From the NCBI RefSeq assembly GCF_044324875.1, contig NZ_CP172185.1: DNA of 64,000 bases. The stretch is one strand, 5' to 3'. Of the stretch, positions 18,001 through 21,000 are shown one piece after another; within the stretch, counting starts at the first letter, position 1; every line of letters starts with the position of its first letter. The stretch comes from Escherichia coli (GTDB lineage: Bacteria; Pseudomonadota; Gammaproteobacteria; Enterobacterales; Enterobacteriaceae). Position numbers: made by a program.

Positions 18001-21000
18001 AGAAATAACGTAGCCGGTTACACTCGCTGGCTGCGTTATACAAATCACTATGAAGTTTTCAACTTCCTGCGCTTAGTGATGCGTACAAACGACTCAAGCG
18101 TACAAAAACAAGCCCCACACTCAATATTACTGCACTGGTAATACGTTTTGTAGATGTTTTGTTCGTGCTCTTCCAACGAACGACTACGGGTTCGGGCTGA
18201 AGCGCCACAGGCCGGGCAAGGGAAAGACATATCACGCTCCTCTTATGCGTATTCCGCTCTATTCGATCACGGATTGGCATCGAAGTCCGATCAGCGATTC
18301 GCATCCATTCGATCAACCGGGAACTTAACTTTTTCTACCGCTTTTTAACGCGTTTTTTCGCTGCTTTCCACTACCGGGGGATTTTTCCTCAGTGACTCTC
18401 CCTGAAGGACCACTCGGTGTGAGTTATGTACCAGTCTGTCCAGGATGGCATCTGCTGTTGTTGGGTTCTCCATCAGACCATGCCATTTATCTACCGGGAA
18501 CTGGCTTACCACTATCGTGCTGCTTTGTCCGTAACGATCCTCTATGAGCTCCAGAAGGTCATTACACTGGGCGTTACTTAACTGTTCCAGCCCCAGATCG
18601 TCCAGGATTAGAACCTGTATTTTTTGCAACTGTTTCAGATATTTCAGCCAGCTGCCATCAACACGTCCCTGAGCCAGTTGTTCCAGTAATCGCCCGGTTC
18701 TACAGTACCGGACGCTGTGTTTCTGTCGACATGCCTGTTCGCCCAGCGCATTGGCTATCCAGCTCTTGCCACATCCTGTCGGACCGGTTATCAGCAGGTT
18801 TTTCCTGTGGGTTATGTAGTGGCCGTTCAGCAGTTCTCTCATCTGTTCAGCCCGCAGACCTCTTGAGGCCGGATAGCGCAGCCCTTCCGGTGTTGCCTGG
18901 TATTTCAGGCCGGCATTTTTTCTCAACCGTGCCACACGGCTGTTTTCCCTGCTCAGAAGCTCGTCATCAACCAGCAGCGTCAGCCTTTCCTCGAACGACA
19001 GTTCGTCGTAGGTCTGAGGCGTTTCCCGCTGCCGTATCAGGCTCCCGGCCATCGCCGGGAGTTTCAGTTGGGTCAGTTTGTTTAACAGGTTATCACTCAT
19101 ACTGTTGTTCCTTCTGTCAGTGGTAGTAGCCCGGACCACGCAGGTTTTCATGCTCTGAAGCATATGCCGGATGTTGTTCGCCCTGGCGGGATAATGGAAG
19201 CTCCAGGTTCTCCCGATGGTGACGCAGCAGATTGTCGATAAAGCGTCTGTCAGGGGCGTTATAGTGCAGGGCAACGTAACAGGCCTTTTCCAGCCGTTCC
19301 GGGCCGTATTTTTTCTGAAGTGCCAGCAGCCCCAGAACTGCACGATAAGCCAGTTCCGGATGGGGTTTTGCCTTCAGCATGGATTCAACCACCCGGCCTG
19401 TGGACGGGCCCGTACGTTTTCCCTGCTCGATCAGGCGTTCCGGTGTCCATGTCCCGTGCTGCCGGTGGCGCTCTGGCATGTGAAGCGGATTGGTTGTGTG
19501 TTTATATTCATGTGTGCTGCGCGGATGTTGCGCCACACACTGCCCCTTGTGCCAGAGCTGTACCACCGACTGCCCCGCCTTCAGTGACAGACGCTGACCG
19601 ACCAGTTCGTGTGGAACGGAGTACCAGTGACGGGCATATTCAACGTGGTAGTCAGGGCCAACCTTCACAGCTTTGTATTCCGTGTATTCATAAGGTGCCA
19701 GAGGCAGCGGAGAGAGTGCTGGCGCATCCAGTATGCGGAAGCGTTCTGCACGGGTTTGATTGCCGTACCCCTTCATTGGCCGGTTATTCATGTCTGTCAG
19801 TAACTCCCTAAGGCGCGCATTCAGCGCCCTGAGCGTGTGGAAGGTTTCATTACGGATGCGGGCAAGAAGCCATCGTTCAACGATGAGGACGCCGTTTTCT
19901 GCTTTTGGTTTATCTTTAGGTTTGCGTGGTCGGGCCGGGATGATAACCGTGCCATAGTGCTCAGCCAGTGCCTGATAACTGTCGTTGATGACAGGCTCAT
20001 ATCGATCGGCCTTTTTCACTGCGCTTCTGAGGTTATCGGGGATGAGCAGCTTCGGTACGCCGCCCAGGAAGGTCAGGCAACGGCTGTGGGCATTTAACCA
20101 TGACATCATGTCCTGACCTTCGCACGCTTCAACGTAGGTATAGTTGGACGCCCCCATTACGGCCACGAAGATTGCCACGCGGCGTATCTCACCGGTGTCC
20201 GGATTAATAACAGGAACCGTAGGACCACAGAAGTCGATAAAAAGCTTTTCGCCGGCACGATGCTCCTGGCGCATGGAGAGACGTCGCGTTTTTTTCCACT
20301 CCCGGTAGCAACGGCAGAAGTGCGAGTATCCCATCGCTTTGTTACCCGCCTGTGCCTTGTATTCCATCCACAACAGTTGCCGCGTCACACCTGGTTTTCT
20401 CATTTCCGTATCGAAGTACAACATGTCAGGCATTACAAGCTCTGATGCAAAGGTGTCTTTGGGCGGAAAAATGAGTTTCTCCAGCGTGTCATGGGATATA
20501 TCAGCAGGTAATGGCCATGACAGAGAAGAGGCTTTGAAGCGGGCAAGAACCTCAAAAACGGTTGAGGCGCTGATGTGTAACGTCAGTCCGATACAACGGT
20601 TAGTCAGCTTCTTGTCGAACTTGAGCTGAAGGATCTTAAAACAGGTTTCCATAGTGCTCCTGGATTTTCTCTTTCTGGACATTGACGTCTCCACTGGTTT
20701 AAACACGGCAATGGAGACTGTGGTGAAAAGAGTTAATTCCCGGAGTGACTGGCAGGATGCCAATCAATGATCGGAAGCATGCCAAATCGTGATCGATTGT
20801 GATGCCAAACTGTGATCGGAGATGGATGCCAAATCATGATCGATTCGAATGCCAAACTGCGATCGATTCAGATGCCATTTTGCATCTTACTGGTGTGAAA
20901 TTTGACCTATTATATCTTCTGCCGCCCCCTCTGGCTGTATCAAATAAACCCGCAGCAGTCGCCGCGTATTACGGACGGACGCACCGTTCCCATGCTCACT

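What the first reader, a model, noticed from the sequence alone, without database searches (positions are those of the whole stretch)
18241..20899. Recent IS21-family insertion with intact TSD, immediately upstream of the Ogr/Delta-like gene
A perfect 5-bp duplication (TCTTA), TG...CA termini and intact istA/istB indicate a recent, probably active copy. It lands 11-16 bp upstream of the ogr-like start codon, displacing its native promoter, and may alter late-gene control and expression of the downstream cargo.
Basis: seen in the sequence. Interest (0 to 1): 0.45.

Follow-up and report, generated by a model that had tools for sequence, protein, structure and literature searches.

The report
ISSso4 insertion upstream of ogr-like gene
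A well-known E. coli jumping gene (ISSso4, IS21 family) has recently landed between a P4-like satellite prophage's small Ogr-type activator gene and that gene's likely promoter, which is a real but ordinary mutation whose effect on expression is untested.

Summary
A 2,639-bp IS21-family element occupies window 18246-20884, with its genes on the minus strand. It has TG...CA ends, multiple terminal repeats, full-length istA and istB, and a perfect 5-bp duplication, TCTTA, at 18241-18245 and 20885-20889. The finding's end coordinate, 20899, is 10 bp too far.

An IS-free allele in E. coli CP033635 is 99% identical and collinear, and it carries one TCTTA. That proves a simple insertion. Fifty-five of 5,426 complete E. 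coli genomes carry the uninterrupted module. None carries this junction.

The element is ISSso4. It is 99.7% identical end to end to the pCT plasmid copy, and 100% identical copies occur in many chromosomes and plasmids.

It sits 15 nt upstream of the ATG of a 60-aa Ogr/Delta-family gene in a P4-like satellite at tRNA-Arg(CCT). The Shine-Dalgarno sequence is retained. An invariant TATAAT, 19 nt beyond the insertion point, is moved 2.6 kb away.

Read-through from the native promoter via istAB therefore cannot be excluded. The "downstream cargo" is not in the same transcription unit. This is a known element and a known kind of event, so interest is low.

The parts
18048..18230 (-). ogr/Delta-like zinc-finger gene (60 aa, C-X2-C-X24-C-X4-C). 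It is intact and identical to the protein of the closest IS-free allele.
   Evidence: PF04606 Ogr_Delta E=2.3e-11, 43.9 bits against a cut-off of 26.3. phrog_603 transcriptional regulator E=1.3e-10. Identical translation in CP033635. RefSeq annotates the same ORF in IS-free alleles.
18237..18241 (-). Shine-Dalgarno AGGAG of the ogr-like gene, 6 nt before the ATG. It overlaps the last base of the duplicated TAAGA, so it survives the insertion.
   Evidence: Sequence read on the minus strand...CGCA|TAAGAGGAGCGTGATATG.
18241..18245 (.). Target-site duplication, gene-proximal copy (TCTTA on the plus strand, TAAGA on the minus strand).
18246..20884 (-). ISSso4 (IS21 family), 2,639 bp, complete, with TG...CA termini.
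   Evidence: 100% identical full-length copies in E. coli chromosomes and plasmids. 99.7% identical (7 mismatches, no gaps) to the pCT copy, which PMC6361801 names ISSso4. GC content is 52.6% against 45-46% in the flanks.
18246..18339 (-). Right (istB-proximal) terminal inverted repeat region with repeated IstA-site-like units. It faces the ogr-like gene.
   Evidence: Inverted-repeat pairs I1, I2 and I5-I10 with the other end, and direct repeat D8.
18345..19100 (-). istB, AAA+ helper ATPase, 251 aa.
   Evidence: PF01695 E=1e-60. NF038214 257.8 bits against a cut-off of 200. Identical to the pCT IstB.
19117..20652 (-). istA, DDE transposase, 511 aa.
   Evidence: NF033546 284.7 bits against a cut-off of 160. 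rve and Mu-transpos_C_2 domains. One amino-acid difference from the pCT IstA. Coordinates match the RefSeq annotation of an identical copy.
20722..20884 (-). Left (istA-proximal) terminal inverted repeat region with five or six GATGCCAAA-N-GATCG repeat units.
   Evidence: Direct-repeat families D1 and D2, and inverted pairs I1-I10.
20885..20889 (.). Target-site duplication, promoter-proximal copy (TCTTA).
20909..20914 (-). Predicted -10 hexamer TATAAT of the native ogr-like promoter, now 2.66 kb from the gene. The -35 is poor (CAGCCA at 17 nt).
   Evidence: Relaxed hexamer scan. Invariant in 15 IS-free alleles. Predicted only; no transcript data.
20951..20966 (-). Terminator-like hairpin (CGCGGC-GACT-GCTGCG followed by GGTTTATTTG) just upstream of the predicted promoter.
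   Evidence: The hairpin is kept in 4 of 6 alleles folded. Weak evidence.

Best explanation
What is shown: a single, recent, simple transposition of the known insertion sequence ISSso4 (IS21 family, istA plus istB) into the 5' leader of the ogr/Delta-like activator gene of a P4-like satellite prophage integrated at tRNA-Arg(CCT). The IstA/IstB machinery made a 5-bp staggered cut at TCTTA, 11-15 nt upstream of the ATG.

What is inferred: the insertion puts 2,644 bp between the gene, whose Shine-Dalgarno sequence is intact, and its conserved, probably activator-dependent promoter (perfect TATAAT, poor -35). The IS is co-oriented with the gene, so the new arrangement is P(native) -> IRL-istA-istB-IRR -> ogr. 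The most likely consequence is a strong reduction and loss of normal timing of Ogr-like expression through polarity. Some residual expression by read-through from the native promoter or from the weak istAB promoter is likely. This would weaken the satellite's ability to switch on late promoters. The IS itself remains capable of further transposition.
For: Shown:
- Target-site duplication, termini and ORFs.
- Empty allele with a single TCTTA and otherwise collinear at 99% identity.
- Ten further IS-free contigs carrying the identical Ogr-like protein.
- The junction is absent from 5,426 complete E. coli genomes, while 55 have the uninterrupted module.
- IS family assignment above curated cut-offs.
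- 100% identical copies elsewhere, up to 23 places per genome.
- 99.7% identity to the ISSso4 copy of pCT.
- Other copies have 5-6 bp duplications, in line with the 5-bp repeats reported for IS21-family integration (PMC10122671).
- P4-like context: C4 antisense RNA and isrK, tRNA-Arg, and toprim primase, integrases and Icd-like gene.

Inferred:
- Promoter, from the invariant TATAAT.
- Possible read-through: no minus-strand terminator inside the IS, and the istB-to-ogr spacer folds no better than shuffled sequence, z = +1.6.
- No good outward sigma-70 promoter in the last 900 bp of the IS.
Against: - There are no transcript data. The native promoter is a hexamer prediction with a poor -35, and the strict consensus scan did not list it.
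- Rho-dependent termination, or an IstA roadblock at the terminal repeats (IstA is reported to occlude the ends, PMC10122671), could abolish read-through. Efficient read-through could equally leave expression nearly normal.
- The role of this 60-aa Ogr homologue as a late activator is inferred from family membership only. No TGT-N12-ACA site was found near the island's late genes.
Confidence: 0.85

Rival explanations
1. The insertion is functionally near-neutral or even activating. Transcription from the native promoter, from the istAB promoter, or from both runs through the co-oriented IS and expresses the ogr-like gene as the third cistron of a P-istA-istB-ogr transcript. This would couple transposase expression to satellite induction.
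For: The orientation is the same. The native TATAAT lies only 25 nt outside the istA-proximal end and points into it. No intrinsic terminator is predicted on the minus strand inside the IS. The 114-nt istB-ogr spacer is unstructured and the Shine-Dalgarno sequence is intact. In IS21, promoter elements supplied from outside the left end raise istAB expression (PMC10122671).
Against: A distance of 2.6 kb usually costs much of the signal. IstA bound at both ends may block RNA polymerase. No strong outward promoter lies near the ogr-proximal end. Nothing has been measured.
Confidence: 0.3
2. The insertion is a complete knock-down that helps 'lock' or domesticate a decaying satellite. The ogr-like gene is dispensable or harmful to the lysogen, and its loss is tolerated or selected.
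For: An independent allele (E. coli K_EC180) has a deletion that removes the ogr promoter and start codon and fuses the remnant to the neighbouring integrase gene.
Against: The ORF here is still identical to the IS-free allele, and 55 of 56 genomes keep the module intact. A private, recent insertion says nothing about selection.
Confidence: 0.2
3. The feature is an assembly artefact or a chance resemblance to a target-site duplication rather than a real insertion.
For: None beyond the general possibility that repeats are misplaced in assemblies.
Against: The boundaries are exact, with a 5-bp duplication of a sequence present once in 15 IS-free alleles. The full-length element matches other copies base for base. 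A misassembly would not create a precise duplication.
Confidence: 0.02

Closest known systems
ISSso4 (IS21 family; copy in E. coli plasmid pCT, NC_014477 41986-44624)
   Same: Same length (2,639 bp), same ends and same gene order. Identity is 99.7% with no gaps; IstB is identical and IstA differs at one residue. RefSeq labels the IstB of identical copies 'IS21-like element ISSso4 family'.
   Different: Seven nucleotide differences from the pCT copy, and a new insertion site. The ISfinder reference sequence itself could not be queried here.
IS21 / IS5376 prototypes of the IS21 family
   Same: istA (HTH plus DDE transposase) followed by istB (AAA+ helper). Terminal TG...CA. Multiple repeat units in both terminal inverted repeats. 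A 5-bp target duplication (PMC10122671).
   Different: The element is larger (2.6 kb against about 2.1 kb) and IstA is longer (511 aa against about 400 aa). It has five or six repeat units at the left end rather than two. No convincing -35 box was seen at the right end.
P2 Ogr / P4 Delta late-gene activators and the P4 sid-delta-psu late region
   Same: Pfam Ogr_Delta zinc finger with four cysteines. The gene lies in a P4-like island that has C4 immunity RNA, an Icd-like gene, an alpha-type primase and an integrase at a tRNA gene.
   Different: The protein is 60 aa (P2 Ogr is 72 aa; P4 Delta is 166 aa, a tandem duplication of an Ogr-like unit; both figures from my own knowledge). It scores far below NCBIfam's Ogr equivalog cut-off (31.7 against 116 bits). 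It has its own promoter region rather than sitting inside a sid-delta-psu operon. Its neighbours are a 236-aa coiled-coil protein and a gpN-like capsid protein rather than Sid and Psu.
Classical polar or promoter-displacing IS insertions upstream of bacterial genes
   Same: An IS sits between a promoter and its gene. The outcome depends on orientation, internal terminators and outward promoters (general statement in PMC10122671).
   Different: Nothing distinguishes this case in kind. Only the target, a satellite's activator gene, is particular.

Membership tests
IS21 family insertion sequence | Two consecutive genes: istA (HTH plus DDE transposase) followed by istB (AAA+ helper ATPase). | tested here: met
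   NF033546 284.7 bits (cut-off 160). NF038214 257.8 bits (cut-off 200). PF01695 E=1e-60. rve and Mu-transpos_C_2 domains. Both ORFs are uninterrupted.
IS21 family insertion sequence | Terminal inverted repeats ending 5'-TG...CA-3', with multiple internal repeat units at both ends. | tested here: met
   TG at 18246-18247 and CA at 20883-20884. Repeat families D1, D2 and D8 and inverted pairs I1-I10.
IS21 family insertion sequence | Short direct target duplication (5 bp reported for IS21-family integration, PMC10122671). | tested here: met
   TCTTA occurs twice here and once in the empty allele. Other copies have CCCGG (5 bp) and ATACTT (6 bp).
IS21 family insertion sequence | Transposition activity of this copy. 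| not testable with these tools
   Indirect evidence only: 100% identical copies at many sites and up to 23 places per genome, a private insertion, and intact genes and ends.
ISSso4 (named element) | Near-identity over the full length to the named reference. | tested here: met
   99.7% over 2,639 bp to the pCT element that PMC6361801 calls ISSso4. The ISfinder entry itself was not available.
Ogr/Delta late transcriptional activators | Ogr_Delta zinc-finger domain with four conserved cysteines. | tested here: met
   PF04606 43.9 bits (cut-off 26.3). Cysteines at positions 5, 8, 33 and 38.
Ogr/Delta late transcriptional activators | Equivalence to P2 Ogr (NCBIfam equivalog PRK09678). | tested here: not met
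   31.7 bits against a cut-off of 116. It is a family member at domain level, not an Ogr equivalog.
Ogr/Delta late transcriptional activators | Activates late promoters that carry TGT-N12-ACA at about -55. | tested here: inconclusive
   No such site lies near the island's late genes. There are 12 in the whole window against 16 expected. Helper promoters are not in the window and activity was not tested.
P4-like satellite prophage (context) | Integrase at a tRNA gene, alpha-type primase, RNA immunity (CI/C4), delta-like activator, and Sid and Psu. | tested here: inconclusive
   Found: an integrase beside tRNA-Arg, the toprim primase phrog_1139 (E=2e-297), C4 RNA at 73 bits, an Icd-like gene and the Ogr_Delta gene. 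No Sid or Psu homologue was found. A gpN-like capsid gene and a 236-aa coiled-coil gene lie in their place.

The most novel reading that the evidence does not exclude
The co-oriented insertion has created a chimeric operon in which the satellite's inducible ogr promoter now drives istA-istB-ogr. Transposase production, and so ISSso4 mobility, would be switched on by satellite or helper induction. The Ogr-like activator would be made late and at low level, as the last cistron. The result would be an IS whose activity is wired to a phage-satellite developmental switch.
Probability: 0.15. Interest if true: 0.35.

Novelty: already known. Interest (0 to 1): 0.12.

Why it matters
The practical value is modest. 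The work names the element (ISSso4) and fixes its exact borders. It supplies IS-free reference alleles. It flags that, in this strain, the P4-like satellite's activator gene is separated from its promoter. That matters to anyone using this strain to study mobilisation of the island or the function of its unusual capsid module. The event itself, a known IS inserted upstream of a gene, is routine in E. coli genomes and opens no long-standing question.

Tried and rejected
- **Canonical Ogr-dependent late promoters (TGT-N12-ACA).** None lies near the ogr-like or capsid genes, and the window count is below chance.
- **Strict sigma-70 consensus scan of 17500-21700.** It found no promoter on the minus strand. 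Only a relaxed scan shows the TATAAT with a poor -35.
- **An outward promoter in the istB-proximal end, as the -35 box of IS21 would suggest.** Nothing convincing was found. A promoter that close to the end would also leave no room for the leader.
- **An intrinsic terminator or stable structure between istB and ogr.** None was found.
- **The same junction elsewhere.** It is absent from 5,426 complete E. coli genomes and from the 10 longest-contig contexts of the identical Ogr-like protein.
- **PDB and family searches for the 236-aa neighbour as a Sid- or Psu-like protein.** No hit.
- **The upstream hairpin as a conserved terminator.** It is kept in only 4 of 6 alleles, so the evidence is weak.
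- **Accession FN868832 for pCT.** Not in the collection; NC_014477 worked.
- **Collection scans for the junction.** Metagenome and GTDB scans were not run, because the expected yield was judged too low for their cost.

Full report
**1. Observation**

- TCTTA lies at 18241-18245 and again at 20885-20889.
- Between the two copies is a 2,639-bp element (18246-20884) that begins with TG and ends with CA.
The start coordinate and the '11-16 bp upstream' statement are exact. With the A of the ogr-like ATG at 18230, the duplication spans -11 to -15 and the IS begins at -16.

The element's genes are on the minus strand: istA at 20652-19117 (511 aa) and istB at 19100-18345 (251 aa). Both are uninterrupted.
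- They exceed NCBIfam's curated cut-offs for 'IS21 family transposase' (284.7 against 160 bits) and 'IS21-like element helper ATPase IstB' (257.8 against 200 bits).
- Pfam gives IstB_IS21 at E=1e-60, and rve plus Mu-transposase C-terminal domains for IstA.
- Both ends carry several copies of a GATGCCAAA...GATCG unit in inverted orientation. This is the multi-repeat terminal architecture described for the family (PMC10122671).

**2. Proof of insertion and its age**

I built a reconstructed empty site from the left flank, one TCTTA and the right flank (1,600 bp). It matches 52 complete E. coli genomes as one uninterrupted piece, the best at 99.1%.
- In that genome (CP033635, a chicken isolate) the site reads ...CGCTCCTCTTA|CTGGTGTGAAA... 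with a single TCTTA.
- The window aligns to it in two collinear blocks, 8446-18245 and 20885-30692, at 99.0% and 99.2% identity. The blocks overlap by exactly 5 bp in the subject. The IS plus its duplication is therefore the only structural difference over about 22 kb.
- The ogr-like gene with its upstream region occurs in 56 of 5,426 genomes, and 55 of these are uninterrupted.
- A 300-bp probe across the ogr-IS junction finds no genome with the junction.
- Ten further contigs encoding the identical Ogr-like protein all lack the IS.

The IS is 100% identical over its full length to copies in several E. coli chromosomes and plasmids.
- Full-length copies are present in 225 genomes, with up to 23 places in one genome.
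- A perfect duplication, intact genes, identical copies elsewhere and a private site together support 'recent and probably active'. Activity itself was not testable here.

**3. Name**

- RefSeq labels the IstB of identical copies 'IS21-like element ISSso4 family'.
- Plasmid pCT is reported to carry ISSso4 (PMC6361801).
- Its copy (NC_014477 41986-44624) aligns end to end with the window element at 99.7%: 7 mismatches, no gaps, IstB identical and one IstA substitution.

The element is therefore ISSso4. Two other copies have duplications of 5 bp (CCCGG) and 6 bp (ATACTT). This is consistent with the 5-bp repeats reported for IS21-family integration.

**4. Context**

The target is a P4-like satellite prophage integrated at tRNA-Arg(CCT), 30080-30154. 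Read on the minus strand from the tRNA gene, it contains:
- an integrase (28639-29943) and a helix-turn-helix gene;
- isrK and the C4 antisense immunity RNA (27064-27145 and 26951-27038);
- an Icd-like gene and small ORFs;
- an alpha-type toprim primase (23060-25753; phrog_1139, E=2e-297);
- a second tyrosine recombinase (22053-23093);
- about 1.1 kb of repeat-rich non-coding DNA;
- the ogr-like gene (18230-18048);
- an opposite-strand small ORF;
- a 236-aa coiled-coil protein and a P2-gpN-like capsid protein;
- a MazEF-type toxin-antitoxin pair on the other strand.

The Ogr-like protein is 60 aa with cysteines at positions 5, 8, 33 and 38.
- It passes Pfam's Ogr_Delta threshold.
- It falls far below NCBIfam's Ogr equivalog cut-off.
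- It is a family member at domain level, and its activator role is inferred.

**5. What the insertion does to the gene**

On the minus strand the native leader reads:

...TTTGATACAGCCAGAGGGGGCGGCAGAAGA-TATAAT-AGGTCAAATTTCACACCAG|TAAGAGGAGCGTGAT-ATG

- The TATAAT (20914-20909) is invariant in 15 IS-free alleles that otherwise differ in the spacer.
- It has only a 3/6 -35 hexamer at 17 nt. That pattern is typical of activator-dependent promoters. This is a prediction, not a mapped start site.
- The insertion point is 19 nt downstream of the hexamer, about +12 of the predicted transcript. It lies between the promoter and the AGGAG Shine-Dalgarno sequence, which survives because it overlaps the duplicated TAAGA.

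The arrangement is now promoter -> left end-istA-istB-right end -> ogr.
- No intrinsic terminator is predicted on the minus strand inside the IS.
- The 114-nt istB-ogr spacer is no more structured than shuffled sequence (z = +1.6).
- No credible outward sigma-70 promoter lies in the last 900 bp of the IS.

Expression of the gene now depends on read-through over 2.6 kb, either from the native promoter or from the weak istAB promoter. In IS21 the single-copy promoter is weak and is strengthened by upstream elements, and IstA binding occludes the ends (PMC10122671).

My best estimate is a marked reduction with some residual transcription. Complete silencing and near-normal expression both remain possible.

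The 'downstream cargo' is not in the same transcription unit. An opposite-strand ORF and a separate intergenic region with its own repeated motifs precede the 236-aa and capsid genes, and MazEF and UpaE are on the other strand. Any effect on them would be indirect, through the level of the Ogr-like protein.

**6. Comparison and novelty**

- The element is a known, named IS.
- The event, an IS between a promoter and its gene, is a textbook kind of mutation.
- An independent deletion allele that removes the same promoter and start codon exists in strain K_EC180. Loss of this gene's expression is therefore not unique.

I rate the finding 'already known' in kind, with low interest. The only mildly novel reading is that the satellite's inducible promoter now drives the transposase operon, tying IS activity to satellite induction. 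I give this about 15% probability.

**7. Seen in passing**

The island carries a full gpN homologue in the place where P4 has sid and psu.
- It is 423 aa. It matches PDB 7jw1 gpN at E=7e-56 over residues 110-419, and has an N-terminal extension of about 110 aa.
- It is preceded by a 236-aa coiled-coil protein with no detectable relatives in Pfam, PHROGs or PDB sequences.
- Two census papers on P4-like satellites do not contain the words 'major capsid'.

This, the GGTTACA iteron cluster and the GTAATACR motif cluster are probably more interesting than the IS, and deserve their own evaluation.

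Noticed in passing
window 15618-17599 (minus strand): The P4-like island encodes its own P2-gpN-family major capsid homologue. It is 423 aa (15618-16889), with PF05125 E=1.5e-73 and PDB 7jw1 gpN E=7e-56 over residues 110-419, and carries an N-terminal extension of about 110 aa. It is preceded by a 236-aa coiled-coil protein (16889-17599) with no family or PDB hit. The pair sits where P4 has sid and psu. The module toprim-int-ogr-236aa-capsid-MazFE recurs next to different chromosomal neighbours. Two P4-like satellite census papers do not contain the words 'major capsid'.
   Followed up: partly
window 21504-21785: Thirteen copies of GGTTACA in both orientations within 280 bp of non-coding DNA (17 in the whole window against 6.4 expected). 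They are probably replication-origin iterons for the alpha-type primase. This is by analogy with P4 ori/crr and is inference only.
   Followed up: no
window 17611-18145, 20965-20972, 21322-21329: The motif GTAATACR is clustered: 9 of the window's 11 copies lie here, against 3.1 expected. Four are in the ~125-bp divergent intergenic region upstream of the 236-aa/capsid genes. One is about 50 nt upstream of the conserved TATAAT of the ogr-like gene. It is a candidate operator of the island's late module.
   Followed up: partly
window 21160-21262: Four closely spaced copies of TTGTGCA (e.g. TTGTGCAAATTTGTGCACTTTTGTGCAG) lie inside a 90-aa 'hypothetical' ORF (21088-21360, minus strand) that has no family hits. 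This may be a regulatory site rather than coding sequence.
   Followed up: no
L006 (E. coli K_EC180, NZ_CP062203) 2472-3171: An independent deletion allele of the same island. The second integrase gene is truncated and fused to a 5'-truncated ogr-like gene, which removes the ogr promoter region and start codon.
   Followed up: partly
window 26951-27145 (minus strand): C4 antisense RNA (73.3 bits) and isrK Hfq-binding RNA (50.6 bits, right at its gathering score of 50) lie side by side. They overlap the 175-aa Icd-like/repressor-like ORF at 26726-27253. This is P4-type RNA immunity.
   Followed up: no
window 22053-23093 (minus strand): A second tyrosine recombinase (Int_N plus Phage_integrase) lies immediately after, and overlaps, the 3' end of the primase gene. 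It is internal to the island and is additional to the tRNA-proximal integrase at 28639-29943.
   Followed up: no
window 5817-15574: The island's distal side carries a 2,637-aa ORF (5817-13730) whose counterpart in CP033635 is annotated as the phase-variable autotransporter adhesin UpaE. A MazE/MazF-type toxin-antitoxin pair lies at 14982-15574.
   Followed up: no
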